This document shows positions 3,893-64,000 of a stretch of 64,000 bases of DNA, one piece after another. Numbering within the stretch: the first letter of the stretch is position 1; every line of letters starts with the position of its first letter. Both the position numbers and the translations under genes were made by a program. Under the pieces are notes generated by a model. The model saw nothing but the letters and a program-made list of their open reading frames with translations. It was not told where the DNA came from and made no database searches. The stretch is from assembly GCA_000002445.1 (NCBI GenBank), contig CP000068.1, positions 1-64,000 on the forward strand. Direction: 5' to 3'. The stretch is from Trypanosoma brucei. Its lineage: Eukaryota.

Positions 3893-5605
3893 TTTTGTTC
3901 AACTTTATGTAATTAAACCCTTTTCTTTAAAAGTATTTACGAAGATAAGTCACCATTTTCTCGCTTTTCTCGTGAAAATTATAAACATAATACACTAAAA
4001 AACATTTTCGACGGGAAGGTTTTTCACCAATTCGAATATTTTGAATTGAAGAGAAAATGAGGCTCCTCGTTCATCTCATGTTTCCTTCGTTGTGGAATGT
4101 GCGTCATCAATGCATCGCGTCGCACAGCCCGTACAAACTTATTGGCAGCAAAGGCATAAAGGCTAGCTCCCGTTCCAATCTACCAACATTGGAAACCGCA
4201 CCGCCAGGTTTTTGGAAGTTGTCAGTCTCTCGCCGCGGTGACGGGTTTAGAGGAATATAGTCGGCAGCTAGTACAGGTTTTTTCCATTCGGTAAGCGTGG
4301 AGGCATGTCAACACTTGATACACTCTCAACCCTTGAGATGTTATGTTTTCCTCGCATGAAGAAAGCACTGGTTTATGTTGGCGGCTCCTCAACTGCAAGT
4401 AAAAGTTAAGATGTTATTTTTTCCCCGTCAATCACACTCTCCAGTAACAAACCAATCTCCAACACATAACGGTGGAAAAGGCATTCTAGTCCAGGACGCA
4501 CAAATATGTGATACAGATCTTTACACTCAGTAGCGTAACCATGTTCGTTTTCTGGCTGAATTAAATGTTTGGCGCTTTGATGCGCTAAGTGTATTCCTCC
4601 CCAGTGCAATCCTCTACAGCAATGGGGTCTTACCCAACGGTAGACTCAATACTTCAATACCGAAGCTCCGTGACGACTTTGTTGGAGTCTGATATTTGGG
4701 AACGAGGTAGGCGTTCATTTCCTTGGGAAAGTTGATTATACCGCTCACCAATGCGTGTTAATGCTGGTACTGAGGGCATTGGGTTTCCCGTTCATCAGAA
4801 GTAATTGTCGTCTCAGTCGGTAGTATTTCACTTTCCTCTGTCACTTACCATCATGGCTCCGTACTTGCTGTGTTTCCCTTCGGTTGATTTTGATAGTTCC
4901 GAGCTATTGCTCTCGGATAAGACGCCTTTACATCCAATTTATCTACAAAGTCACAGTGAATTTCATTATAGTGAATCTGTTGGTGTACTCTCTTAATTTG
5001 TTGGGAAAATTAAATTCATTGCCTTTTTAATCTCCTACTTCTATTTTCTGATGTAACGTGTCTCTTGAAGGCATAAATAGCTGTTAGGGGCGCCACACTA
5101 CGGTGTTCAACCCCTTGATGCATTGTATCATCTTCCACTCTTTGCCTTTACAGATTTCCTTTTTGAATTTTCTTCGTGCCTTCGTGAGAGTTTCCCCCCA
5201 CTGGCGCGGCCATCAGCCATCACCGTAGAGCCCTGAGATGCTATCGGTCTGGCGACTGTGGCAGAGTCTCCCTTTTTTTTATTCATTCTAACACACTCTC
5301 TATAATTTTTGTTGTAGCTCCACAGTTGAACGGAATACAGCAGATGGGGCGAGAAGCCCCCCACCCCAGACTCTCCCAAAGATGTCAATTAGCAATCCTT
5401 TTGTTTTGATTTTTGTTATTCGTTTATTATTCTCTCCCCCTCTTTTTGTTTGTGTTGCTTGTTGATTGCATACCTCCTCTGTCTCTGAGGGTGTCTGGAC
5501 TATTCCTGCGTCCGGTGCTTTTCCTGCTAGCTACACTCTCGGCAATAAGGGGGGAAGTTGCAGAAGGGAGAGTGGGTTGTATGACTGTTACATTAGGTGA
5601 GGACT

Positions 5606-6856
5606 TCACCTGCGGCCGGCTCCGTTCAACCGCAATGAGAAACTGTGCCAGCCTTTTAGAGAAACATATATCCTGCACACACACACACCTTCTACCGCAA
5701 ACCCGACACGTAACTCCTTCAAACTGGGACAGCTCATCAAGTGCAGCGACGTTTCTTCGCAGTCGCCGCGTTGGCTGGTAACAGCGCGCTCTACCTTCAT
5801 ACCGTGCATCTTCTTTTGATGTAGGGTGAGGCCAGTTTTGCTAGCACACTGCCTTCCGCATGCCGGGCACACCAACATGGATGCGTTTGTATGCGGGGAA
5901 TCAGTGGCACACAATTTTGTGCTTTTGCTGCATTTAAGCTCGACTCCCTCACCTTTGTGGAAAGCCTTACAGTGTCGGATGAGGGAGTCCCTGCAACTGA
6001 GCACTTTTTGGCACACACCACACTGCACCTCGCCTTTCCCCGGGACGTCAACGTTTCCCTCACGGGCACGCTTACGAGGGAATTGCACCAACACCACAAA
6101 GTTACCTCCCTCCGTCACTATGTTCTTATGTTTGAATTTCTTGTGTAGTGACAGGGAAGAGCGTGTATCGAAGCTCGCCTCGCACAGGTCACATTGAAAC
6201 GGCAGCTTCCGTGTATCCTGAGGGGCTGGCGCTGCTGGGACGCTACCATCTCCTTTCACTGAGTCTTCGTTCTCTCGCCCCCTTTTCACGCAGCAACTAC
6301 CGCTACCTATGCCATGTATTGTTTGAAGGCTGTGTAATAGTCGGCCTGGCACTACGAATTTGGAGGTACAGAGGGTACAATGAAGCACCTGCGGTCTCAT
6401 CGGGACTCGTGTGCTCGATGGTAGAGGAACGATCGCCAGCACTGGAGGGGGCTCCGGGGGGATGTCCACTGCAGGTGTTGCATCGCCGTATTTGATCCTC
6501 CTGAGGGCATCAGCTCGCACAAAGCCATGTTTGTTTACCATATGCGTTACAGCACTCGAGCGACATTGGCATGTGGCATCACATTCCGTACATTTGGTCG
6601 GTTCGGAGGTTCTCTGAAGAGTGCGTGTCGCAACAGTTGGGGGCATTCGTATTGTTGGCCCTATCGCTGCATGTTGTGGGTTACACCATCGGCACTGCGG
6701 AGGCACACTCGGGTTGATCTTTCGCAACATCCATCCATAGTGTCTTGAAGATCCAACCCGAAAGCGTGCCAGTGCCGTTTCTTCCTCCCTCGTCAGTTCT
6801 TCTTTATGTTTTGTTGGAAAGTGGTTGCCCGTGATACCAAACCTATGAGTGTTCAC
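5606..6856 (-). pseudogene. ingi ORF segment 3: C-terminal C2H2 zinc-finger domain.
   Basis: 416-aa ORF with repeated C-x2-C...H-x3-5-H motifs: CDLCEASFDTRSSLSLHKKFKH, CGVCQKVLSCRDSLIRHCKAFH and CPACGRQCASKTGLTLHQKKMH. Confidence 0.8.
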
Positions 6857-6862
6857 ATGGAC

Positions 6863-9412
6863 TTATTCCGATCTAAGCACTCGGTTCGCATAAGCAATGA
6901 TGTCGGGGATCCATGTATTTCGCAACTGTGGTAAATCAGCGGCCTTTTTGGCCATGTCATCGCAAACCTCATTCCGTTTCACGCCACAATAGCCAAACAC
7001 AAATTGCAGTCGGATACGTATCTTCCTTCTCTGAACTTGAAGCAGAAGCCTCCATAGTCGTCTTAGAATTGGGTTCGTTACGGCTAGGGGGCCTGTCTGC
7101 AGTGCTGTTAACATTGACAGCGAGTCAGAGAAGATGAACAACCTGCTCGGTGTGCTTCTGTATGCCGGAAGCCATTTCAGCAGCCGTTGCAGTCCTATCT
7201 CTAATGCTACGCATTCCGCTCTGTAACTGCATGAGAGTTCCCCTGCTCCGGTTTTGGGTGCGCAAATCAGCGTGTTGTTTCTATAGAGCAGGGCAGCTGC
7301 TCCGGACTTCTCACCGAGGGACACGGATCCATCAGTCCACAATTCGTAGTGCTCTCGCCGCGGTGGCTCCTTCCCCCTCCGTGCAAAATGCCGTTCAATC
7401 CACTTTTCGGAAGCCTCCCTTTTGAAATCGTCAGGGTCATCAGCGCACACAGGCTTTATCTGCGTGTGAAATAGCGGTCGGCAGCTGTAGCGGAGCGTCG
7501 ATGTCTCTAGTGGGTGCTCGCGTGGTTCAATGCGGAGGTGGGAGTAGGACCGCATGATGCGGGAATGTAGGGCTCTGACTGGATGTTTGCTGTGATATAC
7601 TTCTTCAGCACTGCGCCGCAAACATCCGCCTCGTGACTCACACATCAGCATGAATTTCATACTGCGCACAAGAGTGGTTGTCTTGAGTGGCAGGAGGTTT
7701 GCTTCCGGCAGAGAGTCCTCTTTGCGCGTCCCATGCGGTATGCCGGCTATGATGCGACTGACTTTGTGTTGTGCTGCTGCAAGGAGGTCGAGACTTTGTT
7801 CCGAAGCGTCCCAGTACCATACCTCAATGCCATACATGGTGTGTGCCTGTACGAGTGCTAGATAAAAAGCTCTCAGTACTTGTCGTCTTGGCCCCCATGT
7901 AGAAGCTGAGATGGCTGCTATCTGCAGTAGTCTGAAGTCCATCTTGCGTCTCGTTTCGGCCGCATGTGTTGCCATCCCCTGCAGACACTGGAATGTTACT
8001 CCTAGAAGCTTCGGTGTCCTGTCAGCTCCTATTCTTTCGCCGTCCAGTTGCAATGTAAGGGGGTGGCGCTCTATACACCCGAAGAGTGTGCACTTTGTTT
8101 TCGCTACATTGACAGACATGAAGTACTCTTGTGACCACTGTAACACCACGTTGAGACCGCACTGTAGTGTGTGGTTGATGACATCCCTCTCTGTGTCCCT
8201 CGCAAGTAGCGTCGGGTCGTCTGCAAAGAATCCGTGCTGCAGTAACGGCACTTCTGCAAGGCGTTGGCTCAACGAGTTCATGGCAATAATGAACATGATT
8301 GGGCCAATGACAGTTCCTTGTGGCACTCCTCGCTCAAATGTTCTGCTTCTGGAAAGCTTCTCCTTGAATCTCACTCTGCCAGTTCGGTTACTCAGAAATG
8401 ATAGGCACCACTTCACAATGTGGGGTGATACCTTCATTCTGTGCATTTCCCTCGCAATTTTGTCGTGGTCTACTGTATCGAATGCCTTCTCGTAGTCAAC
8501 AAATACAGCACCCGTACGATATTGGTGCGCGGGACGGCAGAGGGCAGCGCGGACGTGCAGGAGTTGTTCGAGCGTTGAGCATCCGGGGCGAAAGCCTGAC
8601 TGCTGCGGCGTCAGCTGGGACTCAACAGTGTCTCTAAGCCTCGCGGCAATTATGCGCTCCATGACTTTGCAGAGACAGCTCGTGAGCGTCACAGGCCTGT
8701 AAGAATCGAGGTCCTCCGCCTTTTTTCCGGCCTTCAGGATGGGGATGATAACACCAGTCTTCCATGCAGGCGGCACGACTCCCGTTCGTAGGCCCTCATT
8801 GAATAGCCTCAGAACAACATTCAGCGCTGTTCTGCCGAGATGTTGCAGTGCCTCGTTGTATAAGCAATCAGGTCCGGCTGCGGATCCACTCGGTAGCAGT
8901 TTGATCGATCTCCGTAGTTCAGCCATCGTGATGGGACTGAACTCACTCGCTATCGTCTTTATTGGTGCCGGTGGGTGTGAGTCGGGGTTCCTTCTTGCGC
9001 GGGACGAGTACAGTTTACTGAACCTCTCAGCTTGACGGTAGTCCGTGATGGCCGCGTTATCAACAAGTACAGCCGGTGTGGTTAGTGGTCGTGGCGCATA
9101 TACTTTCTTGACAATGTGCCAACTGCAGCGGTCTGACACCGCAAGTCTGGAGCATAGCGTGCTCCATCTCTTCTTTGTGGTACGGTCCAGGATCTGCTTA
9201 CGCGTGGCTACCAACTTTTTCCTTCGGTGGGAGGGTCCGCATCCAGCTATCTCTTCATCGAGTTTCGCGAGCTCAGGTGTCCAATGTGGTGGCGTTGCTC
9301 TGCAGCCACGGGGGACGGAGACCTTCGTCGCAACGCGGATGGCGGAGCACAATTTCTGTTCCGGGGTGTTGACGTTCTTCCCTCTACCAATTTTTCCTGC
9401 AGGGCTCGTCAA
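6863..9412 (-). pseudogene. ingi ORF segment 2: reverse transcriptase and RNase H.
   Basis: 849-aa ORF. RT motifs PQGTVIGPIMF and HGFFADDPTLLA (YXDD-type). An RNase H-like motif ELWTDGSVSLGEKSGAAALL lies near the C-terminus. A stop at 6860-6862 separates it from the next segment. Confidence 0.85.
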
Positions 9413-10358
9413 TCTTGTGACGGAAATTCCTCCAGTTAGCTTTTAGCCATGCGTACATGGGCTTTCGAAGCCGCGGGCAACTCAGTGCATCTGTGTCGTC
9501 TCCAACGATAACTTCGAAAAATATGTTATGGTGATCGCTATCGGGAGAATACAGCGATGTCCACGTGTACACTGTGCAATTCCTTGACAGTGTCACATCA
9601 GGGGTGGACTCTCCGTGGTGGCGCGCGTACCTGGTGCACTCACCGGTGTTGCAGACCAGAAACTGGTTGTCAATGCACCACTGTGTGAGGGTTTCACCCT
9701 TGGTATTTGGTGGGCTCGCGCGATCCCATGCCAACGCGTGTGCGTTAGCGTCTGCACCGATGAGCTGGGCACCGTCAGTCGTCAGAAGCGTATCTAGGTC
9801 AGTTGCCGTGAAGGTGTGTTTTGGTGGGATGTATGCCGACGTGACAGTCAGCGCCGCTCCACGTGCAAGGTAAATTGTTGCATGCACTTGTTCAATGCGA
9901 CCAACAACGGCCATACCGGTCTCGACTGGTAGGTCCTCCCTCACTAGTATTGATACACCACCTCCTTTGCAGTTACGAGCTATTCCGTGATGTTGGTAGC
10001 CAGCAACACTAAAGCAAACCGCCTCTCCAGGTGTCATCCTTGTCTCGCTCAACAGAAAAAAGTTAATCCGCTCATCAACAAGGGTTTTGTGGAGTGCTAA
10101 TCTCTTTCCTTGAGATAGCCCGGCGCAGTTACACTGCATCCCGCGCAATAACTGGCTGAGATTCTCTTCCACATCACCGGACAGCAGCATCTTAGTGCGG
10201 ATGATGCTGCTGATGGCACGCTGGCACGTGCCCAGGGACCGACAAATGAAAAACGGTGTCCCAGCAAGACGCTGCTGATCCCTGTGCTGTATGATGCCGT
10301 AGCCGGAGCAAAGCAGTGTTCCCCATGAAAGGAACGCTGCTGGCTCTTGGCTTCCCAA
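9384..10358 (-). pseudogene. ingi ORF segment 1: AP-endonuclease (APE-like) domain.
   Basis: 324-aa ORF at the 5' end of the element. It overlaps the next segment at 9384-9412 in a different frame, so there is a frameshift. Confidence 0.75.
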
Positions 10359-10418
10359 TCGATTTCTCTTCTGTTACTGGACCTTGGCACCACGTTAAGA
10401 TGGCCGGCATCGCCAGGG
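10340..10418 (-). promoter_or_regulatory. Pr77-like internal promoter/5' hallmark sequence of ingi (first ~79 nt).
   Basis: Reverse complement of 10340-10418 begins CCCTGGCGATGCCGGCCATCTTAACGTGG.... This is the conserved first ~79 nt shared by ingi, RIME, DIRE and L1Tc, recalled from established knowledge. Confidence 0.7.
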
Positions 10419-12219: not shown

Positions 12220-13095
12220 CTAGACCAACAAGCGTTGAACGCATATGAAGCTTAATGTTGCGGTGATTAACATCACGTGCCTTTTGTGCGCTGTGGTTCT
12301 CCCCACTTGTGTACTGTTTGCTTCTTGCTCCAGGTCATCCAGATCCTTTCGTGTCTCTTTTTGTGCATTTTCTTTCACAGTGCCCAAAATCACCCTCTGT
12401 GCTGGCGGCCACTTCATGTTGCTCTCTCCTTCCTTTGCTACTTGCAGTGGTGCTACATCCCCTCCTTGGTTCTGGCCTTCATCCCCGCTCCCGGGGTTTC
12501 TTTGTTCACCCTCGGCCATTTGTTTTACTTGCCCTTCCGCTTGTCCGCTCCATAACTCAGTAGTCCTTTGTTGCCCTTCATCTGAGGACGGCTCAGCTGA
12601 TCCTTCGTTCCCTCCGCGAATTGCGGTACCACTTGCTCTACCAACTTGTCTTTCACCATTTATAGTGGCACTCAAAGCGTCAAATGATGGCTGACGAGAA
12701 GCGATTGAACGCAAGTCTAGGCCTCCTCTCTCTTCATGTTGGGTAGCGACCTCGTCGCCGCTTCTCAGGCTGCTTTCTGGCTTCTTCGCTGGAGCAGGTG
12801 CTGGTGGAAGCGCCCGCTGGACTGTACTGCTCTGAGGTGCAAGGGGGGATCCGCACATCTCCTTTCCATTGGAATACCATATTTCGTTGCATTTACCGCC
12901 TTCGGACGACACCGATACCGAGGTTCCACGAGACAAAGCGATTGCATTACTTGTTGTCAGTGCCAAAAAGAGGGGTGCTGTGACCTTGAACATCGTTTCT
13001 CTTATATTGCTGCTGCACAAACTGAGGGGGAAATCATCACTAAAAACACGTAAGAGATTCATTATCCCTACTGTACCAAGTAGATAGAGGGGCAT
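12220..13095 (-). CDS. Hypothetical acidic, low-complexity secreted protein (291 aa) with signal-peptide-like and C-terminal hydrophobic ends.
   Basis: The 291-aa ORF is long for its surroundings. N-terminus MPLYLLGTVGIMNLLRVF is hydrophobic. The core is S/E/G/Q-rich and probably disordered. C-terminus is ...HVMLITATLSFICVQRLLV. Same strand and spacing relative to the GPI-protein gene as in the other repeat unit. Confidence 0.45.
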   Translation of the reverse strand: MPLYLLGTVGIMNLLRVFSDDFPLSLCSSNIRETMFKVTAPLFLALTTSNAIALSRGTSVSVSSEGGKCNEIWYSNGKEMCGSPLAPQSSTVQRALPPAPAPAKKPESSLRSGDEVATQHEERGGLDLRSIASRQPSFDALSATINGERQVGRASGTAIRGGNEGSAEPSSDEGQQRTTELWSGQAEGQVKQMAEGEQRNPGSGDEGQNQGGDVAPLQVAKEGESNMKWPPAQRVILGTVKENAQKETRKDLDDLEQEANSTQVGRTTAHKRHVMLITATLSFICVQRLLV

Positions 13096-14811: not shown

Positions 14812-15852
14812 TTATATAAATGACAGCAAAAATAGCGTTACGGGCCTGGAAGCGACTATGGTGCAACTCCTCTGCTCTTCGGGTGGTCTTTTAGTATTGT
14901 TGGTCATGTCGCTGGTTGTAGCTGTGGTATTTCTTTGCGCGTTTGGCCTTTCATTTTGTGTTGATCCGTCTGTTCTGGCAGTTGTGTGTGGACCTTCAGT
15001 TTTGCTCGGTGTCGACCTATCTGATTTTTCCTTTTTGCTAGTTTCTTTAGTTTGTGGATGTGCATTGCTATATGCTCGTTCTTCAACTGTCGCAACTTCG
15101 CTCCTCAGGGTTTCCAGCTTACTGAGCCATTCAATACCGCTTGCATTGTCTTCATCAGTTCCCCTTGGATACATCACACAAATTCCGTCACTCTCTGTCG
15201 CGGCCCCGTTGCAAGTATGTAGTCCTCTATCTTTACCTCCCCCAAAGATATAGTGGTGTTCCCGTCCACTTGTGTCCGTATACCTCCTTACACGCTCCTT
15301 GAGTTGCTTTTTCTTCTCTTGAAATTCAGCCACCGTTGGCATGCCTTCCCTTAACCCTGTATCGCATTTACTTTGCATAGTTTTCCACAATTTTTCATGG
15401 CCTTCTCCGTTTCTCCACCTTGCAGAGCCAGTTTGCTTGACGTTTCCCGCGTAGCAAATAATCTTAATCGTTGACTTTTGGTCGTTTCCATCACATAGGC
15501 AAACAAGATCTTTCACAAGTGACTTTCCAGCCGGGGCGGCTGCAAGGCCATTACCCCGTCCACAATCCAGATCTCTGTACAGATTCCATGTCAATTTACT
15601 TACATCACTTATTCCCGTTCCAAACAAAATTTCATTGACCTTCTTTTTCAGAGGGTCCATATTCGGCCCTGATGTTCCTTCCATTTTTCCCAATAGCTCA
15701 TTTATTCGCTCTGTCAACCTAACAAATCCGCACAACATTTTAAACTCCTCCATGTTGACTATGCTTTCTTCTGCAGTGGATACGTCCACCACCGCAAAGA
15801 CTAACGCTACCGTATATCTCACCGACTCCGACCACATTTTCACCTCTACCAC
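14812..15852 (-). CDS. Surface-type protein of 346 aa with signal peptide and GPI-signal-like C-terminus. Paralogue of 2864-3892 (ESAG-like family).
   Basis: 346-aa ORF. N-terminus has hydrophobic stretch SVRYTVALVFAVVDVSTA. Shares conserved Cys and motif blocks with 2864-3892: YIFGGGKDRGLHTCNGAATESDGICVMYPRGTDEDNASGIEWLSKLETL. Has a Ser/Thr-rich stalk and the tail RPVTLFLLSFI. About 350 bp of upstream flank (15853-16210) is also homologous to 3893-4300. Confidence 0.6.
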   Translation of the reverse strand: MVEVKMWSESVRYTVALVFAVVDVSTAEESIVNMEEFKMLCGFVRLTERINELLGKMEGTSGPNMDPLKKKVNEILFGTGISDVSKLTWNLYRDLDCGRGNGLAAAPAGKSLVKDLVCLCDGNDQKSTIKIICYAGNVKQTGSARWRNGEGHEKLWKTMQSKCDTGLREGMPTVAEFQEKKKQLKERVRRYTDTSGREHHYIFGGGKDRGLHTCNGAATESDGICVMYPRGTDEDNASGIEWLSKLETLRSEVATVEERAYSNAHPQTKETSKKEKSDRSTPSKTEGPHTTARTDGSTQNERPNAQRNTTATTSDMTNNTKRPPEEQRSCTIVASRPVTLFLLSFI

Positions 15853-35430: not shown

Positions 35431-35462
<32 letters not shown>

Positions 35463-44294: not shown

Positions 44295-44369
44295 AATTGA
44301 TAAAAGGTTTTTGTTAAATTTTATGAAATTTTTTCTCTTTATAAGAATTTGATATATTTTACTAAAATT

Positions 44370-44384
44370 GGTATATTTTAACAC
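44370..44384 (+). promoter_or_regulatory. VSG 3'UTR 16-mer-like element (GGTATATTTTAACAC) with a partial extra copy just upstream (TGATATATTTTAC at 44350-44362).
   Basis: Seen directly. Followed by the CTTTTCGACAAAAC motif. Confidence 0.6.
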
Positions 44385-46533: not shown

Positions 46534-48165
46534 ATGATCCGGAGCCTCGAATCCCTCGCGATTATATGGCTGTATACAGCAGCTGTAGCAGCTTATGCGG
46601 CTCAACTGCGCGCCAATGACCTAGCCGACGATTTGGGGCCCTTTGCGGTGCCATAAATCTAGCGCTAACTGAGCCCAAGGTGCAATCAGCGCCAACCGAA
46701 GTGGAAGAGCTAACCCTTGCTGTAGGCGTAATTAATCTTACTTTGGCACCCAAGAACCTAACCGATCTTATCGATTTGCAGAAGACACTTGACCAACTCA
46801 CCGACAGACCAACAACCCCAAAAGACGGCGACGAACTAAACAAGTGGAAAGCGCACTGGGACTTTTGGCAGAAAAGCAAGAAGAAGACGGAAGAACAGGA
46901 CTCAAAAAAAAAGTTACGCCGCGTGGAAGCAAGTAAAACTTTCTGAGAGAAGCCGCAAAGCGCTGCGAGCAAGCGCTGAACTTGCATACACACTCTTAAA
47001 CAAAGCCAAAGTGGAATAACTCAAACTCGCGGACAAGAACATCAAAAAACAACTGTCACAGTCACTCTACGGACCTGGCGGAAGCGAAACAGTAGATCAG
47101 ACGTACACAGGCAGCAACAGAGCCGCAAAATGCGGAAAACATGAAAGCCTAAAAGCCAGCCATGCAGGTAGCTCTTTACGATTTGACATTCAATGCCTCT
47201 GCGGTTTCGCAACAGGTGACAGCGACACCGGCAAGACCTGCTGCACAGGCTGCGGCGCAGACGTGGCCGGCACCAACCTGGGGCCAGCGAACTGGGACGG
47301 CAGCAAAGACAGCAAACCGCTGTAGCAAACGCTCAAAACAGAATGCCAAAAACTTAGTCACCACCTCACGCTATCAACCAGCTCCGTCAATGCGGTCCTT
47401 AGGTCATTTCATAACCGCCTAGAGCGAAAAAAGGCGACACCGGCGAAGCGACCTTACATTTACCGGAGAATACGGCCGGACTGGCCAGCAGTGACTACAC
47501 CGGCAGCGGTGACACAAACGGCGGTCGATGGGTACACTACAAAGTGGACTACTTCGCTGCCGGCACAACCAGCGTGCCTTGGGTAACTGCATTTTAAACA
47601 GCAGCAGCAGAAGCAGACGGCTCCAGTAAAGCTGAAGCAGCGCTTGAGGCGATCAAACTCCAGCTGGAGACACTAAACGCTACCAACGCGGCGCTAATCT
47701 ACGACACAGAGATCAACAACCCGACTAACGACGAACAACGCCGACAACCGCGATGCAAGAACAAGAAAAAGCCCAGAAAGAGGCAGCCGAAAAGTTTGCA
47801 ATGAAGCAAAAGAAGACCAGAAAGAATGCGCAAACTTAAAGGAGAAATGTTGTGTTTATAAGGAGGATGGGGGGAAGGACGAAAAGTGCATATTGAGTGA
47901 GAATGCCAAAAGGGAAGCAGAAAAAGAAGCTGCAAAGGAAGGAGAAGGAGAGGCTGGAGATACAGCTGGGTGTTCAAGACACGGCATTGATAAGGCAAGA
48001 TGTGAAAATGACAAAAAAGGCGACAAACACAATTATGCGTTTATAAATGGCAATGATAGCCAAGAGGGGAAAGACAAAGTTAAATACCAAAATAGTAATT
48101 TTCTCATCAATAAGAAATTAGTTCTGAGTATGGATTCTGCTTTTGTGAGTTGGGTACCATTTTGA
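46534..48165 (+). pseudogene. VSG: VSG pseudogene (cassette 4). Start codon and signal peptide are present, but the body has multiple frameshifts and stops.
   Basis: ATG at 46534 gives MIRSLESLAIIWLYTAAVAAYAAQLRAND. Fragments follow at 46680-46946 and 47162-47422. C-terminal ORF 47893-48165 ends ...KYQNSNFLINKKLVLSMDSAFVSWVPF, which is a GPI signal. Confidence 0.75.
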
Positions 48166-51924: not shown

Positions 51925-51968
51925 GAATACTTTTAAGTTTTATAAGATTCACTAAATTTGTTATTATT

Positions 51969-51984
51969 TGATATATTTTAACGC
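51969..51984 (+). promoter_or_regulatory. VSG 3'UTR 16-mer (TGATATATTTTAACGC) of the intact VSG.
   Basis: 15/16 match to consensus, 45 bp after the stop codon. Confidence 0.8.
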
Positions 51985-52250: not shown

Positions 52251-53863
52251 AGACTAAATTAACATATGAAAATAAAGCACTCGAAGTAGTGGCAAGGATA
52301 CAATGAGAGTAAGTAAGCGAAAAAGAGAGGGAGATGGAGCATGTTCACTTTCAAAAAGAAACATGACGACGCGCTGCCTTACGGACAAGAAGATAGAGGA
52401 GAGGGTGATGAAGAAGGTCAGACTAAAATGCACAGGAAAATGAAGCCTCGATACTTAATACAAAAAAGCAGTATAAGTGTAAGACACTTAAGAGTTCCAC
52501 TTCGAGTCTGCTTCCAAGAACTCCTGGAAGGACGCATTATTTCACTTTAGTTCTCAATAACTGATATAGAGCAATCTATTACAGATACTCCATCTGTAAA
52601 AGACTTAACTTTTGTCCAAAAGTTCGTCCCTAATCAGAGTTTATCGCACCGAAGAAGAAGAGACAAAAAACAAGCACCAAATTTAGAAGTGTTAGGTGAA
52701 AGAAAAATAACGCATCAAACCTGCAACATAAAAGTAGAAATCAAAGCGTTTCAGCATCATCAAATAGATTAGAGACACTTAGTTTTAAAGAAAAAAACAA
52801 GCAGAAAAATTAGTAAAGTTATTACGAAGAAGAAAGCTTTTCGTTTTTTTTTAGAACTAAGTTAACCACTTGCTTTTTAAAACCGCACCTTAAATGGAAA
52901 ATTTAGTACATTGACAATGAGGTGTTTAAAAGAGTGCAATTAAGTTCATTTTGACAAGTACAATGTAGTAAAAATATTCATTTATACAATTATTTCATTT
53001 CATTAACAGATTTCGATAGCTTTAAACTAAAAAGAAAGCAATATGTACTAGACAAACGTAGAAATGCATTGCAAAAATTGAAGAAGTAAAAGTCTGCATG
53101 TTTCAATTGCAATTAGTCCATAGGGAAAAAGTAGAACTTAGTCCTTCTCAATGCTCAAAATGTACGCAAACAAACAGAATAATGAAACAAGTAAAATACG
53201 GGGCTAAGCTTGCTGCGCACCAAGGTTCTAAGATTAAAAAATAACTTAGGGATCCTGTGTGGGGCCCTTATGACAAACTCCAAAGACAGTCTTAGTTCAC
53301 TAAAAAAAGTATGCAACTGCAGTAGATGTCAAGACTGTGGCTTTTAATTTACTGACAGGTCCTAGTGTTCGTCACAACACATCATAACAAAGGTTTCACA
53401 GGTTCATATACGTCTTTTGGAGTCGATGTAAGAGGGAAAAGAAACGGAAGCGATATGGACATATGTAAAAAAAATACCTGACACGTGGTATCTGTGGGGT
53501 GTCGTTAATACAAATGGAAAGCGCACGCTTTAAGCAGTCAAGGCAACGAGCACGTTCCACAAAGCTACAGTACACCAAAACGGAGACGTCTACACTGGAA
53601 AGAGGTGCCACAGAGACGGCGTATGTGCAACCACGAGCTGATGGGTTCACCACAACCACTGGCCCCATCTTGCACCCAATGTGTTCAATGTAGCGGTGCA
53701 TTTCGGTTAACTATCAGCAAACACTTTTTTGTCACGGAATCCTGGAGACGCAGCAGAGGCAGCGCTATCAGTATTTAAAGTAGGGAAGACCACTGAAATC
53801 TTTGCGAAAGACCAAGACCAATAAACTCTAGCCATAGCCATAATCTTCTCTCATCAACAACCA

Positions 53864-55323
53864 TTGACTAAAGATATGTTCAGGAAAGTAGTCACAATAA
53901 TCGGAATTTTAGCCGCCACAGCTGACAAAGCAGCGGGAGCGGCCAACGACAATGCCAGAGCTTTCAACGCTCTTTGCGCAGTAATTGGCATAGCGTCTTC
54001 TCCGCCTGACGTCGCGACAGAAGACAAAGGTGACAGCATCCCAGCGATCCTAGAAAGTCTAAAACAGCTCAATCTTTCGTTGGCGCCAGAAAGCTCCTAC
54101 AAACTTTCGTTCGAGAAAAAAACAGACGAATCTCAGGAATCACAACACTGGAAAGACAACAGAGACACCTGAGAAAAAAGTAAAAAATTAATCGAAGAAG
54201 GCACCACGTTGATCGACGGCATAAAGCTACTGCGCCCCGGGCCAAGCCATGAAAGGAAAGTCGCAGCGACGATTATAAACCGAACACTAGAGCTGGCGCT
54301 CACCGCAGCGGAAAAGCTCAAACCGGCAATACCAGCTGCAGCAGTAAAAGAACTACAAAACAAACGCTGTATGGCGAGAGCGGGACGCTAACAACTAACA
54401 ATGACGAGCCCTTTCCAGCCTCGGGTACCGCAGCCTGCGGCGGCGGCGACCCAACAAGCCAAAAATCAGGCAGCAGCCTCGCAGCCGACCTGGTCTGTCT
54501 TTGCGCCAAAACAGGCGGCAATGGGGAAGAGTGCGCGGGCAAAAGTGCCGGCACGATAGACTATACAGCCGCAGCCGCAGCGAAAGCAGCCTACGAAAAA
54601 CTACTACCACTGTGCCCGAAAGCCAAAGGCACGAAATTCAACACCGGAGCGACCGCCGCGGCACGTGCAGGGTTTATCACGGCGCTGAAAGAGAACGGCA
54701 AAAGCAATCAAGCCGAAGCCAACATATTAGGTGCAGAGAACGCCAAGCAATGCAACGGCGGCGCCCAAGGCAAATGAGTCTATTACAAAGGCGCACCAGC
54801 GGACGGGCACACACCTATACCGTGGCTAGACGCGCTCGAAACAGCAGAGCGGAAGGTGGAAGAAGCCAAAACAAACGCCCTTGCTAATGACGAAATTTAT
54901 AGTGCAGTTGTAAACCTCAAACAAACAGCCCTATCAGCGTATCTGCGGGCAATTTCAGGAGATGCATCGCTGCCGGTGGACAGCGCCCAGGCAGCAAAAC
55001 CGTCAGGTTCAGAAACGGAAAAATGCGACAAGCTCAAAACAAAGAAGGACTGTGAAGAAAAGGGTTGCCAATGGAAAGGAACTGATAACAAAACTGGCAC
55101 ATGCGAAGCAGATGAAACTAAAGTTACAACTCAGACAAATACAGCAGGCACAGGAGAAGGAGCTTCAGGAGCTACAACAGAGAAATGCAAAGGGAAAGAA
55201 CAAAAAGACTGCAAAGATGGATGCAAATGGGAAGGAACAGAATGCAAAGATTCCAGCTTCCTCCTAAACAAACACTTCGCCCTCAGCGTAGTTTCTGCTG
55301 TATTTGTGACCTTGCTTTTTTAA
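53864..55323 (+). pseudogene. VSG: VSG pseudogene (cassette 6). Signal peptide and N-domain start are present, with internal frameshifts. C-terminal domain and GPI signal are intact. A fossil telomere follows.
   Basis: ORF 53864-54172 starts MTKDMFRKVVTIIGILAATADKAAGAAN. ORF 54856-55323 ends ...EKCKGKEQKDCKDGCKWEGTECKDSSFLLNKHFALSVVSAVFVTLLF*. An exact 16-mer TGATATATTTTAACAC lies at 55373-55388. Confidence 0.8.
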
Positions 55324-55372
55324 TTTTTTCCCCTCTTTTTCTTGCTAAATTTTTTTGCTATTTGAAAACTTC

Positions 55373-55388
55373 TGATATATTTTAACAC
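55373..55388 (+). promoter_or_regulatory. VSG 3'UTR 16-mer, exact consensus TGATATATTTTAACAC.
   Basis: Exact match 50 bp after the VSG 6 stop. Confidence 0.85.
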
Positions 55389-58595: not shown

Positions 58596-59825
58596 TTGTT
58601 CCCAGCTTTTCATGTTAATATTGGTTTCCTGCTGCGGTTACAGCGTCCGAGAATGTCACGCGACCGACCTGTTCCTTCAAGCCTGAAAACTAACACCCTA
58701 GCGCAAATGCAAAGTAAACTCTCTACGCTGCCCGCAGCGCAGACATTCGTTTTGCTTCGCCTGGCGATAACTGTCCATGTTTCCGATTCTAACATCGGGG
58801 CCGGGGAAAATGGAGCATACTACGCCGCGGCATGCTCCATTGTAAGCACGTTGGAAGGGGCAACAAAAATCACAGAAGGCGGCAACTCAGTGGACAGCTT
58901 ACTAGGTGATATCAACGCGATAAACCTTTCGGCCGCGGACCCAGCATTCAGGAAATTAATTAACCCTGAAAAAGACTGGGCGGATTCAGCGGCAAAAGAA
59001 GAGGTAGGTACAAACAGCTTTGCTTCAGACTGGGAAAAACGCTACGGATCGTGGAGGGCGGCGGCGGTTAAAATAAAAAACAACGAAGCAGCGTACTCAG
59101 AGTTCAAGCGCGAGAAAATCTCATCTGTAGCTCAAAAGACAATACGAGCAGCAACCGAAGCAGAAACGGCACTATCAACTGACTCAGCGCTGTGCGACCA
59201 AAAAAGCAAGATACAAACCATGGTTACCAATGCAAAAGCAGCACTGTATGAATCGGAGACAGGAAATGACGACGAGCAGGCGCCGGACCTAACCAACCGC
59301 ATCAATAAATGCGGAAAGGACGACGGAACTGGCGGTGACATCGCCGGGGAAAGTCTGAGAACGGACATAATCTGTATATGCTCGAAACAAGGCGGCGACA
59401 CCGGAAAGTATTGCTGCGAAGGCTGCGACGGTGCACCGGCAACAGCGTGGGCGGCCAAAACAAACAGCCCAACGATCTGGAAAGCACTCAAGCAAAACTG
59501 CGCGACCCTCTACCCAACTATTCCGCTAAGCACAGCAACATTAACGACGGCCGTAGCACACCTGCTCTCTTTAAGCTTAAAAGCACAAGGCATAACAACA
59601 CCCAAACAATTTTTTCTGGGAACACTGCTAACCACCGGAGCACAAGGCTGTGCCGGAAGTTCCGCAAACACATATGGCTATTGGGTTCGATACAAAACAA
59701 CTACGGCAGGAGCCTTAACATCAGCAAGCATACCATGGCTAACGCCTGCCAAAGAAGCCGCTGCAGCAGATTCTATAAAGCAAAACCAACAGAAGATCGC
59801 TAGAATTGAACTTTTTCGAATTTGA
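58596..59825 (+). pseudogene. VSG: VSG N-terminal domain (409-aa ORF) truncated at its 3' end by the ingi insertion. There is no C-terminal domain or GPI signal.
   Basis: B-type-like N-domain with Cys spacing ...ICICSKQGGDTGKYCCEGCDGAPAT.... The ORF stops at 59823-59825, exactly where ingi copy 2 homology begins at 59822. No CTD cysteines or hydrophobic tail are present. Confidence 0.75.
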
Positions 59826-60264
59826 ATTTTCTCCCTGCCTTCGTGGGAGTTTCCCCCCACTGGCGTGGCCATCAGCCATCACCGTAGAGCCCTGAGATGC
59901 TATCGGTCTGGCGACTGTGGCAGAGTCTCCCTTTTTTTTATTCATTCTAACACACTCTCTATAATTTTTGTTGTAGCTCCACAGTTGAACGGAATACAGC
60001 AGATGGGGCGAGAAGCCCCCCACCCCAGACTCTCCCAAAGATGTCAATTAGCAATCCTTTTGTTTTGATTTTTGTTATTCGTTTATTATTCTCTCCCCCT
60101 CTTTCTGTTTGTGTTGCTTGTTGATTGCATACCTCCTCTGTCTCTGAGGGTGTCTGGACTATTCCTGCGTCCGGTGCTTTTCCTGCTAGCTACACTCTCG
60201 GCAATAAGGGGGGAAGTTGCAGAAGGGAGAGTGGGTTGTATGACTGTTACATTAGGTGAGGACT

Positions 60265-60774
60265 TCACCTGCGGCCGGCTCCGTTCAACCGCAATGAGAA
60301 ACTGTGCCAGCCTTTTAGAGAAACATATATCCTGCACACACACACACCTTCTACCGCAAACCCGACACGTAACTCCTTCAAACTGGGACAGCTCATCAAG
60401 TGCAGCGACGTTTCTTCGCAGTCGCCGCGTTGGCTGGTAACAGCACGCTCTACCTTCATACCGTGCATCTTCTTTTGATGTAGGGTGAGGCCAGTTTTGC
60501 TAGCACACTGCCTTCCGCATGTCGGGCACACCAACATGGATGTGTTTGTATGCGGGGAATCAGTGGCACACAATTTTGTGCTTTTGCTGCATTTAAGCTC
60601 GACTCCCTCACCTTTGTGGAAAGCCTTACAGTGTCGGATGAGGGAGTTCCTGCAACTGAGCACTTTTTGACACACACCACACTGCACCTCGCCTTTCCCC
60701 GGGACGTCAACGTTTCCCTCACGGGCACGCTTACGAGGGAATTGCACTACCACCACGGTACCATCCTCCGTCAC
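60265..60774 (-). pseudogene. ingi copy 2 ORF segment (C-terminal zinc fingers, 169 aa).
   Basis: CGVCQKVLSCRNSLIRHCKAFH and CPTCGRQCASKTGLTLHQKKMH, near-identical to copy 1. Confidence 0.8.
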
Positions 60775-60897
60775 TATGCTCTTATGTTTGAATTTCTGGT
60801 GTAGTGACAGGGAAGAGCGTGTACCGAAGCTCGCCTCGCACAGGTCACATTGAAACGGCAGCTTCCGTGTATCCTGAGGGACTGGCGCTGCTGGGGC

Positions 60898-62493
60898 TCA
60901 ACCATCTCCTTGCAATGAGTCTTCGTTCTCTCGCCCCCTTTTCACGCGGCAACTACCGCTATCTATGCCATGTATTGTTCTAAGGTGGTGTAATAGTCGG
61001 CCTGGCACTGCGAATTTGGAGGCACAGATGGTACAATGAAGCACCTGCGGTCTCATCGGGACTCGTGTGCTCGATGGTGGAGAAACGATCGCCACCACTG
61101 GAGGGGGCTCCGGGGGGATGTCCACTGCAGGTGTTGCATCGCCGTATTTGATCCTCCGGAGTGCATCAGCTCGCACAAAGCCGTGTTTGTTTACCATATG
61201 CGTTACAGCACTTGAGTGGCATTGGTATGTGGCATCACATTCCGTACATTTGGTCGGTTCGGAGGTTTTATGAAGAATGCGTGTCGCAACAGTTGGGGCT
61301 GTTTGTATTGTTGGTCCTATCGCTGCATGTTGCGGGTTACACCATCGGCACTGTGGAGGCACACTCGGGTTGATCTTTCGCAACATCCATCCATAGTGTC
61401 TTGAAGACCCAACCCGAAAGCGTGCCAGTGCCGTTTCTTCTTCCCTCGTTAGTTCTTCTTTATGTTTTGTTGGAAAGTGGTTGCCCGTGACACCAAACCT
61501 ATGAGTGTTCTCATGGACTTCTTCCGACCTAAGCACTCGCTTCGCATAAGCAATGATGTTGGGGATCCATGTGTCTCGCAACTGTGGCAAATCTGCAGCC
61601 TTTTTGGCCATTTCATCACAAACCTCATTCCGTTTCACGCCACAATGGCCAAACACAAATTGCAGTCTGATACGCAACTTCCTTCTCTGAACTTGAAGCA
61701 GAAGCCTCCATAGTCGTCTCATAATTGGGTCCGTTACTGCTAGGGGGCCTGTCTGCAGTGCTGTTAACATTGACAGCGAGTCAGAGAAGATGGACAACCT
61801 GCTCGGTGTGCTTCTGTATGCCGGAAGCCATTTCAGCAGCGGTTGCAGTCCTATCTCTAATGCTACGCATTCCGCTCTGTAACTGCATGAGAGTTCCCCT
61901 GCTCCTGTCTTAGGTGCACAAATCAGCGTGTTGTTTCTATAGAGCAAGGCAGCTGCTCCGGACTTCTCACCAAGGAACACGGATCCATCAGTCCACAATT
62001 CGTAGTGCTCTCGCCGCGGTGGCTCCTTCCCCCTCCGTGCAAAATGCCGTTCAATCCACTTTTCGGAAGCCTCCCTTTTGAAATCGTCAGGGTCATCAGC
62101 GCACACAGGCTTTATCTGCGTGTGAAATAGCGGTCGGCAGCTGTAGCGGAGCGTCGATGTCCCTAGTGGGTGCTCGCGAGGCTCAATGTGGAGGTGAAGG
62201 TAAGACAGCATGATGCGGGAATGTAAGACTCTGACTGGGTGTTTGGTGTGGTATACTTCCTCAGCACTGCGGTGCAAACATCCGCCTCGTGACTCACGCA
62301 TCAGCATGAATTTCATGCTGTGCACAAGAGTGGCCGTCTTGAGTGGCAGGAGGTTTGCTTCCAGCAGAGAGTCCTCTTTGCGCGTCCCATGCGGTATGCC
62401 AGCTATGATGCGACTGGCTTTGTGTTGTGCTGATGCAAGGAGGTCGCGACTTCGTTCCGAAGCGTCCCAGTACCATACCTCAATGCCATACAT
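60898..62493 (-). pseudogene. ingi copy 2 ORF segment (RNase H and zinc fingers, 531 aa).
   Basis: Near-identical to the C-terminal part of 6863-9412 plus the N-terminal part of 5606-6856. Here this is read in one frame, so the stop that separates those segments in copy 1 is absent. Confidence 0.8.
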
Positions 62494-62789
62494 GGTGTGT
62501 GCCTGTACGAGTGCTAGATAAAAAGCTCTCAGTACTTGTCGTCTTGGCCCCCATGTAGAAGCTGAGATGGCTGCTATCTACAGTAGTCTGAAGTCCATCT
62601 TGCGTCTTGTTTCGGCCGCATGTGTTGCCATCCCCTGCAGACACTGGAATGTTACTCCTAGAAGCTTCGGTGTCCTGTCAGCTCCTATTCTTTCGCCGTC
62701 CAGTTGTAATGTAAGTGGGTGGCGCTCTATACACCCGAAGAGTGTGCACTTTGTTTTCGCTACGTTGACAGACATGAAGTACTCTTTTG

Positions 62790-63872
62790 TCACCATTGTA
62801 ACACTACGTTGTGGCCACATTGCAGTGTGTGGTTGATGACATCCCTCTCTGTGTGCCTCGCAAGTAGCGTTAGGTCATCTGCAAAGAATCCGTGCTGCTG
62901 CAACGACACTTCTTCAAGGCGTTGGCTCAACGAGTTCATGACAATAATGAACATTATCGAACCAGGGACAGTTCCTTGTGGCACTCCTCGCTCAAATGTT
63001 CTGCTGCTGGAAAGCTTCTCCTTGAATCTCACTCTGCCAGTTCGGTTACTCAGAAATGATACGCACCACTTCACAATGTGGGGTGATACCTTCATTCTGT
63101 GCATTTCCCTCGCAATTTTGTCGTGGTCTACTGTATCAAATGCCTTCTCGTAGTCAACGAATACAGCACCCGTACGATGTTGGGGCGTGGGGCGGCAAAG
63201 GGCAGCGCGGACGTGCAGGAGTTGTTCGAGCGTTGACCATCCGGGGCGAAAGCCTGATTGCTGCGGCGTCAGCTGGGACTCAACAGTGTCTCTAAGCCTC
63301 GCGGCAATTATGCGTTCCATGACTTTGCAGAGACAGCTCGTGAGCGTCACAGGCCTGTAAGAATCGAGGTCCTCCTCCTTTTTTCCGGCCTTCAGGATGG
63401 GAATGATAACACCAGTCTTCCATGCAAATGGCACGACTCCCGTTCGTAGGCTCTCATTGAATAGCCTCAGAACAACATCCAGCGCTGTTCTGCCGAGATG
63501 TTGTATTGCCTCGTTGTATAAGCAATCAGGTCCGGCTGCGGATCCACTCGGTAGCAGTTTGATCGATCTCCGTAGTTCAGCCATCGTGATGGGACTGAAC
63601 TCACTCGCTATCGTCTTTATTGGTGCCGGTGGGTGTGAGTCGGGGTGCCTTCTTGCGCGGGACGAGTGCAGTTTACTGAACCTCTCAGCTTGACGGTAGT
63701 CCGTGATGGCCGCGTTATCAACAAGTACAGCCGGTGTGGTTAGTGGTCGTGGCGCATATACCTTCTTGACAATGTGCCAACTGCAGCGGTCTGACACCGC
63801 AAGTCTGGAGCATAGCGTGCTCCATCTCTTCTTTGTGGTACAGTCCAGGATCTGCTTACGCGTGGCTACCAA
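62790..63872 (-). pseudogene. ingi copy 2 ORF segment (reverse transcriptase, 360 aa).
   Basis: Contains GVPQGTVPGSIMF and HGFFADDLTLLA. Homologous to the RT part of copy 1. Confidence 0.8.
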
Positions 63873-64000
63873 CTTTTCCCTTCGGTGGGAGGGTCCGCAT
63901 CCAGCGATCTCTTCATCGAGTTTCGCGAGCGCAGGTGTCCAATGTGGTGGCGTTGCTCTGCAGCCACGGGGGACGGAGACCTTCGTCGCAATGCGGATGG

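What the first reader, a model, noticed from the sequence alone, without database searches (positions are those of the whole stretch)
5163..64000. Two near-full-length ingi copies in direct orientation bracket the whole VSG array
Copy 1 (5163-10418) and copy 2 (59822+) are both on the minus strand. They are >90% identical by eye over >4 kb and each has only 2-3 frame disruptions, so they look young. Direct repeats of this size are substrates for homologous recombination. That would delete or circularise ~49 kb containing all seven VSG cassettes. Conversely, such an event could have assembled the locus. The frame-disrupting lesions differ between copies, which suggests independent decay rather than a recent segmental duplication.
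Basis: partly seen in the sequence, partly recalled or inferred. Interest (0 to 1): 0.5.

Follow-up and report, generated by a model that had tools for sequence, protein, structure and literature searches.

The report
Two dead ingi retrotransposons flanking VSGs
Two ordinary, already catalogued, inactive ingi retrotransposons sit in the same orientation on either side of a seven-gene VSG array at the left end of Trypanosoma brucei TREU927 chromosome 5, and their last ~0.6-0.9 kb is nearly identical, which suggests they once exchanged sequence.

Summary
The repeat is real. Window 5162-9342 and 59821-64000 are on the same strand and 95.8% identical over 4,183 bp. Both encode, on the minus strand, the endonuclease, reverse transcriptase, RNase H and zinc finger of Tbingi.

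The window is T. b. brucei TREU927 chromosome 5, bases 1-64000. Both elements are already listed in a published ingi catalogue, at 5160-10418 and 59824-65071.

- The copies are not young. They are 2.8% and 3.2% from the family consensus. Copy 1 has 4-5 disabling lesions, and copy 2 has at least 4 in its visible part.
- The lesions are not all different. Both copies share a 2-bp frameshift insertion.
- The divergence is not uniform. It is 5.1% over 3.27 kb, the same as between unrelated ingi copies, but 1.1% over the 3'-terminal 925 bp. A 578-bp core there has only 1 mismatch.

The flanks are unrelated, so this is not a segmental duplication. Neither copy has the 12-bp target-site duplication. 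Copy 2 joins an RHS pseudogene at its 5' end to a truncated VSG at its 3' end.

Best reading: these are two independent old insertions whose 3' ends were later homogenised by ectopic gene conversion. This is known biology and of low interest.

The parts
5158..10418 (-). ingi copy 1: full-length (~5.26 kb), inactive Tbingi element
   Evidence: Pfam domains on the minus strand. tblastn to the intact ingi protein P0097, aa 18-1656, in three frames. 95.0-96.4% nt identity to T. equiperdum ingi copies. 5' end CCCTGGCGATGCC and 3' end ...GAAAATTCAAAAA. Listed as NC_007278 5160-10418 m 'Complete INGI'.
59817..64000 (-). ingi copy 2: the 3' 4.18 kb is visible; the element continues to chr5 position 65071, outside the window
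   Evidence: The catalogue row NC_007278 59824-65071 m covers element positions 1-5245.
5165..6088 (-). near-identical 3' tract in copy 1 (core 5208-5785 has 1 mismatch in 578 bp)
   Evidence: 10 differences in 924 sites here against 167 in 3,256 upstream. Max-chi2 breakpoint at 6088, permutation P = 4e-4. 21 shared derived variants. Other ingi pairs differ by 3.1-5.7% in this region.
59824..60747 (-). the same near-identical 3' tract in copy 2 (core 59867-60444)
5687..5688 (-). GT insertion that frameshifts the ORF at codon 1571; shared with copy 2 (60346-60347)
   Evidence: Alignment. Absent from the 7 comparator sequences in that alignment. Both copies end in the same aberrant peptide ...VEGVCVCRIYVSLKGWHSFSLRLNGAGRR*.
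60346..60347 (-). the shared GT frameshift insertion in copy 2
6863..6865 (-). copy 1 private nonsense codon (TAA, codon 1180)
9395..9395 (-). copy 1 private 1-bp insertion (frameshift at codon 337)
10352..10375 (-). copy 1 private scrambled block, 4 nt longer than consensus, inside the 5' 79-bp signature and ORF codons 13-17
62790..62791 (-). copy 2 private 2-bp insertion (frameshift at codon 758)
62578..62580 (-). copy 2 private TAG (codon 828)
60898..60900 (-). copy 2 private TGA (codon 1387)
36232..37714 (+). VSG cassette 1: A-type pseudogene, preceded by (TAA)n and a 70-bp-repeat core at 35329-35511
   Evidence: Pfam Trypan_glycop 1.8e-20. tblastn. Repeats.
39520..41051 (+). VSG cassette 2: A-type, 407-aa ORF followed by a frameshift, with a 3'-UTR 16-mer at 41036
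   Evidence: Pfam 7.9e-35. 16-mer with 2 mismatches.
42918..44384 (+). VSG cassette 3: probable VSG pseudogene, with a 16-mer at 44369 and a GPI-signal-like tail; the N-domain is not recognised by Pfam
46516..48162 (+). VSG cassette 4: B-type pseudogene with several frameshifts
   Evidence: Pfam VSG_B 1.4e-24 and Trypan_glycop_C 1.2e-15 on joined frame segments.
50401..51984 (+). VSG cassette 5: intact 507-aa A-type VSG (AAZ11144, 'VSG, atypical, putative') plus its 16-mer
   Evidence: Pfam 2.5e-97 and 3.1e-23. Name. 16-mer.
53825..55388 (+). VSG cassette 6: B-type pseudogene with a perfect 16-mer at 55373
   Evidence: Pfam VSG_B 2.5e-44 and CTD 6.1e-24..
58596..59816 (+). VSG cassette 7: B-type N-terminal domain only, cut off at the 3' end of ingi copy 2
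   Evidence: Pfam VSG_B 5.4e-43 covering profile positions 3-342 of 352. The ORF runs into the ingi tail.
2864..3892 (-). intact VSG-related gene (AAZ11138) lying outside the bracket, left of copy 1
14812..15852 (-). intact VSG-related gene (AAZ11140), right of copy 1
12220..13095 (-). 'ESAG protein, putative' (AAZ11139)
   Evidence: No Pfam family.
25865..26680 (+). hypothetical / ESAG9-like ORF (AAZ11142)

Best explanation
These are two separate, old, inactive copies of Tbingi, the autonomous ~5.25-kb non-LTR retrotransposon of T. brucei. They lie at the left end of TREU927 chromosome 5.

They arose as independent insertions. Over most of their length they are as different from each other as any two ingi copies in the genome, and their flanks are unrelated.

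Later, their 3'-terminal ~0.6-0.9 kb became almost identical. The most likely cause is a non-reciprocal homologous exchange (ectopic gene conversion), either between the two copies or from one common donor. That exchange also copied a frameshifting GT insertion into both.

Both copies have also lost their 12-bp target-site duplications. Copy 2 now joins an RHS pseudogene (5' flank) to a truncated VSG (3' flank). So each element has been at the edge of at least one flank-changing rearrangement.

As direct repeats 54.66 kb apart, they could recombine to delete or circularise the seven-VSG array. The 3' tract, with perfect runs of 340 and 242 bp, is the only segment where that should be efficient.

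Shown: identity of the elements, their orientation, the lesions, the patchy divergence, the missing target-site duplications and the mismatched flanks. Inferred: gene conversion as the cause of the patch, and any future deletion.
For: Identity and orientation:
-.
- Source and prior annotation.

Independent origin:
- 5.1% divergence over c1 9342-6089, against 2.2-5.1% among unrelated copies.
- Only 18 shared derived sites in 3,632 columns there.
- Homology ends at the ingi 3' end.

The 3' tract:
- 1.1% divergence over about 925 bp and 0.2% over the 578-bp core. All other pairs differ by 3.1-5.7% in the same region.
- 21 shared derived variants, about 10 of them unique to this pair, including the GT frameshift.
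- Max-chi2 breakpoint at 6088 with permutation P = 4e-4. The direction of heterogeneity is opposite to that of every other pair.
- BLAST of the tract against 8 other copies gives 95.2-96.6%.

Missing target-site duplications and mismatched flanks:
- c1's best match is 6 of 12, which is chance level. Control copies score 12/12, about 11/12 and 9/12.
- c2 is also at chance level.
- c2's 5' flank is the RHS P-loop hot spot, while its 3' flank is a VSG_B N-domain.

Recombination requirements (PMC1904282):
- The minimal efficient processing segment is about 100 bp.
- 5% divergence lowers recombination 33-fold on 450-bp substrates.

Other support:
- A second conversion-like patch in the same window: 226 bp of perfect identity inside ~78% similar VSG upstream regions.
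- The literature states that ingi and RIME recombine (PMC2854126).
Against: - All comparator copies come from T. b. equiperdum and T. b. gambiense, not from TREU927. A TREU927 ingi sub-lineage carrying this 3' haplotype cannot be excluded. With 0 of 8 comparators carrying it, a frequency up to roughly 30% remains possible.
- The core tract is about the length of one Sanger read, so local mis-assembly in the 2005 reference is possible.
- The 5' 1.07 kb of copy 2 and all but 100 nt of its 5' flank are outside the window and could not be read.
- Missing target-site duplications can also result from small flank deletions.
- No direct evidence of any deletion or circle exists here.
Confidence: 0.6

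Rival explanations
1. Shared source lineage. The two copies were retrotransposed independently from two different mosaic master elements that happened to carry the same 3' module, including the GT insertion. No post-insertion exchange occurred.
For: - ingi copies form a star-like family, and about half of the 21 shared variants also occur in one or more other copies.
- Elements with a damaged ORF can be mobilised in trans, as RIME is (PMC3820030).
- Comparators were few (8) and came from other subspecies.
Against: - None of 8 other copies has the haplotype.
- About 10 pair-specific changes in 565 bp is the density expected of private decay in one genomic copy, not of a master sequence.
- Within the tract the copies carry only 1 and 4 private changes. 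At their upstream private rates of 2.2-2.6%, 12-15 each would be expected.
- A master with a frameshifted C-terminus is less likely to be a source.
- Both copies lack target-site duplications, which points to post-insertion events.
Confidence: 0.2
2. Assembly artefact. In the Sanger-era chromosome 5 assembly, reads from the 3' end of one copy were placed in both copies, creating a false near-identical patch.
For: - The core is 578 bp, about one Sanger read.
- The two copies are 55 kb apart, so they could lie in one BAC.
- 5-kb repeats at 95% identity are hard to finish. This point is an inference; no tool result bears on it.
Against: - The patch is not perfectly identical: there is 1 mismatch in the core and 10 in 925 bp.
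- Divergence tapers over 5786-6088 rather than changing abruptly.
- A similar perfect-identity patch occurs in unrelated VSG upstream regions.
- Both junctions with unique flanks are clean.
Confidence: 0.12
3. Recent segmental duplication of a block containing one ingi, followed by decay.
For: Same orientation and 95.8% overall identity.
Against: - No flank homology at the visible 3' junction.
- The 5' flanks differ: c1 has a non-RHS flank and c2 has the RHS P-loop.
- 5.1% divergence over 3.27 kb equals the divergence between unlinked copies.
Confidence: 0.02

Closest known systems
Tbingi (ingi4 subclade of the ingi/L1Tc clade of trypanosomatid non-LTR retrotransposons) and its deletion derivative RIME
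   Same: - About 5.25 kb long.
- 5' end CCCTGGCGATGCCGGCC...
- One long reading frame ordered endonuclease, reverse transcriptase, RNase H, C2H2 finger.
- ...GAAAATTC(A)n tail.
- 95-96% nt identity to annotated copies.
- Both copies are already catalogued.
   Different: - Both copies are dead, with at least 4 lesions each.
- Both lack the 12-bp target-site duplication that typifies the family.
- Copy 1 has a damaged 79-bp signature and a short A5 tail. Copy 2 has an interrupted tail.
ingi/RIME insertions in the RHS (retrotransposon hot spot) gene family
   Same: The 5' flank of copy 2 is the RHS P-loop (...IVIGTPGIGK). A chromosome 6 ingi sits at the homologous RHS site.
   Different: The 3' flank is not the rest of the RHS gene. 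It is a truncated B-type VSG, so the element is now a junction between two unrelated genes.
Ectopic gene conversion and unequal recombination between dispersed LINE/SINE copies (for example mammalian L1 and Alu); named from general knowledge
   Same: Works alike. Dispersed copies a few percent diverged exchange short tracts and can mediate deletions. Loss of target-site duplications marks recombinant elements.
   Different: The organism and element family differ. No deletion or duplication product was observed here, only a candidate conversion tract.
Segmental gene conversion in T. brucei VSG arrays
   Same: Patchy identity between paralogous sequences in silent arrays. The same window holds a 226-bp perfect block in otherwise ~78% similar VSG upstream regions.
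   Different: Here the substrate is a retrotransposon, not a VSG or its flank, and there is no link to expression.

Membership tests
Tbingi non-LTR retrotransposon | Length about 5.2 kb | tested here: met
   c1 measures 5,253 bp to the AAAATT motif plus the tail. c2 spans 59824-65071 in the catalogue.
Tbingi non-LTR retrotransposon | Coding capacity for AP-endonuclease, reverse transcriptase, RNase H and a C2H2 zinc finger, in that order, in one frame | tested here: met
   Pfam hits in that order on the minus strand. Colinear tblastn to the intact 1,656-aa protein P0097. The frame is broken by lesions.
Tbingi non-LTR retrotransposon | Conserved 76-79-bp signature at the 5' end | tested here: met
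   c1 starts CCCTGGCGATGCCGGCC, like all full-length comparators, but carries C>T changes and a scrambled ~20-nt block. The 5' end of c2 is outside the window; the catalogue marks it 'ok'.
Tbingi non-LTR retrotransposon | A-rich 3' tail | tested here: met
   c1 ends ...GAAAATTCAAAAA. c2 ends ...GAAAATTCAAATTCGAAAAA. Comparators have A9-A11.
Tbingi non-LTR retrotransposon | 12-bp target-site duplication (PMC3820030) | tested here: not met
   c1's best match is 6 of 12, with shuffle P = 0.90. c2 scores 7 of 12, with shuffle P about 1. Controls score 12/12, about 11/12 and 9/12. I read this as post-insertion change, not as non-membership.
Tbingi non-LTR retrotransposon | Conserved upstream insertion motif (ingi4 signature) or a known hot spot | tested here: inconclusive
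   c1 matches 5 of 10 conserved positions by eye against the pattern quoted. c2 sits at the RHS P-loop hot spot.
Tbingi non-LTR retrotransposon | High nucleotide identity to known copies | tested here: met
   93.5-96.4% to seven copies from T. b. equiperdum and T. b. gambiense.
Potentially active (young) ingi | Intact 1,656/1,657-aa ORF, low divergence and intact target-site duplication | tested here: not met
   At least 4 lesions per copy. 2.8% and 3.2% from consensus. No target-site duplication.
Segmental duplication | Homology extending into the flanks on at least one side | tested here: not met
   Alignment stops at the element's 3' end. The 5' flanks are unrelated.
Gene-conversion tract between paralogues | A block of much lower divergence with shared derived variants, bounded by normally diverged sequence and not explained by regional conservation | tested here: met
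   A donor in the same genome other than these two copies could not be tested.
Subtelomeric VSG cassette array | Head-to-tail VSG genes or pseudogenes with upstream 70-bp repeats and a 3'-UTR 16-mer | tested here: met
   Seven + strand cassettes. The 16-mer is found at 4 of them. A 70-bp-repeat core is found upstream of 5.

The most novel reading that the evidence does not exclude
The near-identical 3' tract records a recent physical exchange between two ingi copies 55 kb apart. Together with the two lost target-site duplications and the RHS-ingi-VSG junction, this would mean that ingi elements act as the recombination anchors that attach, remodel and could excise this seven-gene VSG array at the chromosome 5 end.
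Probability: 0.35. Interest if true: 0.35.

Novelty: already known. Interest (0 to 1): 0.2.

Why it matters
The significance is limited. It is established that ingi elements populate VSG subtelomeres and recombine, and both copies are already in the reference annotation and in a published catalogue.

The one useful addition is a concrete, testable case. These two array-flanking ingi copies share a 0.6-0.9 kb conversion-like tract and have non-matching flanks. That marks where a deletion or circle removing the seven VSGs would most likely break. It also provides a simple junction assay for archive plasticity between strains: the RHS flank of copy 2 joined to the VSG-related-gene flank of copy 1.

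Tried and rejected
- **Reading past base 64000.** I tried to fetch the TREU927 contig to see the 5' end of copy 2. Look-ups for the intact VSG and for a copy 2 ORF found no record. Only the 100-nt flank printed in a catalogue was available.
- **Finding the frameshifted C-terminal peptide elsewhere.** A search of the protein database returned no candidates. I think this is because the ingi cluster representative P0001 stops short of that region, so the result is uninformative.
- **Rfam scan of the whole window.** No match.
- **Published ingi TALE target sequence.** Hits were at chance level.
- **Pfam on joined reading-frame segments.** No family was found for 3893-5150, 12-13 kb or the 42.9-44.3 kb cassette, nor for ORFs in 16-36 kb.
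- **A RIME-sized exchange.** Rejected, because from general knowledge of RIME its 3' half is only ~250 bp while the tract is 578-925 bp.
- **Whole-element segmental duplication.** Rejected because the flanks are unrelated.
- **A reciprocal swap of 3' flanks between the two copies.** Rejected. The 3' flank of copy 1 shows no RHS family hit and no similarity to the copy 2 flank.
- **Template switching during reverse transcription.** Considered less likely, because that route should leave a target-site duplication.
Full report
**What is there**

A repeat search and a self-BLAST of the window find one long direct repeat. Positions 5162-9342 match 59821-64000 on the same strand, at 95.79% identity over 4,183 bp with three gap openings. 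No inverted copy was found. A global alignment gives 184 substitutions and three indels.

On the minus strand both copies encode, in order, an AP-type endonuclease (seen in copy 1 only), reverse transcriptase, RNase H and a C2H2 zinc finger. The closest database protein is a T. b. equiperdum reverse transcriptase at 94% identity. Its cluster contains an intact 1,656-aa ingi protein, P0097. Both copies align colinearly to P0097 at 92-95% identity.

Copy 1 runs from CCCTGGCGATGCC... at 10418 to ...GAAAATTCAAAAA at about 5158, roughly 5.26 kb. It is 93.5-96.4% identical in DNA to seven ingi copies fetched from T. b. equiperdum and T. b. gambiense. The elements are ingi and the core observation holds.

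**Where the window comes from**

Five ORFs of the window are exact matches to T. b. brucei TREU927 proteins AAZ11138-AAZ11144 on a 1,608,198-bp chromosome. They comprise two 'VSG-related' proteins, one 'ESAG protein, putative', one ESAG9-like hypothetical protein and one 'VSG, atypical'.

A published catalogue of ingi/RIME in TREU927 (PMC4660242, supplement 1) lists NC_007278 (chromosome 5) 5160-10418, minus strand, 'Complete INGI'. Its 100-nt 5' flank is identical to the window sequence. The catalogue also lists NC_007278 59824-65071, minus strand, element positions 1-5245.

So the window is chromosome 5 bases 1-64000, copy 2 is full length, and both elements are already on record.

**What lies between and around the copies**

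Seven VSG cassettes lie head to tail on the + strand:

| Cassette | Position | Type and state |
|---|---|---|
| 1 | 36.2 kb | A-type pseudogene |
| 2 | 39.5 kb | A-type |
| 3 | 42.9 kb | Probable VSG: 3'-UTR 16-mer and GPI-like tail only |
| 4 | 46.5 kb | B-type pseudogene |
| 5 | 50.4 kb | Intact 507-aa A-type |
| 6 | 53.8 kb | B-type pseudogene |
| 7 | 58.6 kb | B-type N-domain only |

The 3'-UTR 16-mer is found at four cassettes and a 70-bp-repeat core upstream of five.

The seventh cassette is cut off within about 20-30 bp of the 3' end of copy 2.

Copy 1 lies 26 kb to the left of the first cassette. It sits among minus-strand genes: a VSG-related gene at 14812-15852, an ESAG-like gene at 12220-13095, and a second VSG-related gene at 2864-3892 on its far side.

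'Bracket' is therefore a fair description of the seven-cassette array. It is not accurate for all VSG-family genes in the window.

**Are the copies young and decaying independently?**

I compared both copies with the intact ORF of L001.

| Copy | Lesions |
|---|---|
| Copy 1 | Scrambled block 4 nt longer than consensus at codons 13-17; 1-bp insertion at codon 337; TAA at codon 1180; 2-bp insertion at codon 1571 |
| Copy 2 (visible part) | 2-bp insertion at codon 758; TAG at codon 828; TGA at codon 1387; the same 2-bp (GT) insertion at codon 1571 |

Both copies therefore end in the same aberrant peptide.

Copy 1 is 2.8% and copy 2 is 3.2% from a leave-one-out consensus. They are among the more diverged of the sampled copies, which range from 1.7% to 3.0%. 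They are ordinary dead copies, not young ones, and one lesion is shared.

**Uniform or patchy divergence?**

The divergence is strongly patchy.

- From c1 9342 to 6089 (3.27 kb) the two copies differ by 5.1%. That is as much as or more than any pair of unlinked copies (2.2-5.1%).
- From 6088 to 5165 (about 925 bp) they differ by 1.1%. In the core 5785-5208 there is one mismatch in 578 bp. All other pairs differ by 3.1-5.7% in the same region.
- The last 565 columns hold 21 variants shared by the two copies against the consensus of the others. About ten of these, including the GT insertion, are seen in no other copy. The upstream 3,632 columns hold only 18 such variants.
- A maximum chi-square scan puts the breakpoint at c1 6088, with permutation P = 4e-4.
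- Many other pairs also show heterogeneity, but always with the 3' part more diverged than the reverse-transcriptase part. Only this pair is reversed.
- Eight other copies are 95.2-96.6% identical to the tract.

**Flanks**

Homology ends at the element's 3' end.

Tbingi normally carries a 12-bp target-site duplication (PMC3820030). Control copies show 12/12, about 11/12 and 9/12 matches. Copy 1's best match is 6 of 12, which is chance level.

The 5' flank of copy 2, taken from the catalogue, translates to ...IVIGTPGIGK*. This is the P-loop of a retrotransposon hot spot (RHS) pseudogene. Pfam RHSP is the top hit but weak, at E = 0.41. A near-identical chromosome 6 flank scores E = 1.4e-5. This flank has no target-site partner at the 3' side, where a VSG lies instead.

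So neither element is a pristine insertion, and copy 2 joins two unrelated genes.

**Interpretation**

The two copies are independent insertions. They are not a segmental duplication.

The 3' tract is best explained by ectopic gene conversion between them or from a common donor:
- The density of pair-specific changes (about 1.8%) is that of private decay in a single genomic copy.
- Within the tract each copy has only 1 and 4 private changes. At their upstream private rates, 12-15 each would be expected.

A sub-lineage of ingi sharing this 3' module, or a mis-assembly of the Sanger-era reference, cannot be excluded. All comparators come from other subspecies, and the TREU927 contig could not be fetched.

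A second block of perfect identity occurs in the same window: 226 bp (45184-45409 = 57585-57810) inside ~78% similar upstream regions of cassettes 4 and 7. This shows that patchy exchange is not unique to the ingi pair.

**Recombination potential**

A crossover between the copies would remove 54.66 kb, of which 49.4 kb is unique DNA, including all seven cassettes.

In T. brucei, 5% divergence lowers recombination 33-fold on 450-bp substrates in repair-proficient cells. The RAD51-type pathway needs about 100 bp of uninterrupted homology (PMC1904282).

Outside the tract the longest perfect run is 185 bp. Inside it the runs are 340 and 242 bp. Any exchange should therefore favour c1 5208-5785.

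The literature already states that ingi lie within subtelomeric VSG arrays (PMC3553974) and that ingi and RIME recombine and cause rearrangements (PMC2854126).

**Verdict**

The sub-claims 'young', 'different lesions' and implicit uniform divergence are wrong. The recombination idea is reasonable and partly supported by a conversion-like tract and non-matching flanks.

Nothing here is new in kind, and both elements were already annotated. Interest is low.

Noticed in passing
window 45184-45409 and 57585-57810 (within 45100-45900 / 57501-58390): The upstream regions of B-type VSG cassettes 4 and 7 are about 75-80% alike but contain a 226-bp block of perfect identity. An ORF of about 100 aa is open in both, with no convincing Pfam family. 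It looks like a second gene-conversion patch.
   Followed up: partly
window 2864-3892 (-) and 14812-15852 (-): Two intact 'VSG-related' genes (AAZ11138 and AAZ11140) are 42% identical in protein. Each has a signal peptide, a partial VSG_B domain and a GPI-type tail. One lies on each side of ingi copy 1, 11.9 kb apart.
   Followed up: partly
window 6058-6357 (-): Copy 1 has a private hyper-divergent patch: 24 differences from consensus in 300 bp, including a 3-bp insertion. Copy 2 and most or all of the other copies agree with each other at those sites. This could be another exchange with a more diverged element.
   Followed up: no
window 10352-10375 (-): The 5' 79-bp signature of copy 1 contains a scrambled block of about 20 nt plus C>T changes relative to all other full-length copies. 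Its promoter/ribozyme region is probably non-functional.
   Followed up: no
chr5 65072-65171 (outside the window; sequence from PMC4660242): The 5' flank of copy 2 is an RHS pseudogene interrupted at the P-loop hot spot. A chromosome 6 ingi has a nearly identical flank. The VSG array is therefore bounded on its inner side by RHS and ingi.
   Followed up: partly
window ~16000-36000: About 20 kb has almost no recognisable coding sequence; only the ESAG9-like ORF at 25865-26680 was identified. GC and AT skew change sign at about 20-24 kb. This marks a strand switch between the minus-strand VSG-related/ESAG genes and the plus-strand VSG array.
   Followed up: partly
window 35329-35492: A (TAA) run of about 52 units lies immediately before the first 70-bp-repeat core (35500) at the head of the VSG array.
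   Followed up: no
window 50401-51924 (+): The only intact VSG of the array (AAZ11144, annotated 'atypical') has a 94% identical counterpart in strain EATRO1125 (VSG 1125.4147) and 63-67% relatives in T. evansi and T. brucei.
   Followed up: no
ingi alignment of loci L001-L006: For every pair of ingi copies other than the window pair, the 3' third is more diverged than the reverse-transcriptase region. This suggests past selection on the RT part of source elements.
   Followed up: no
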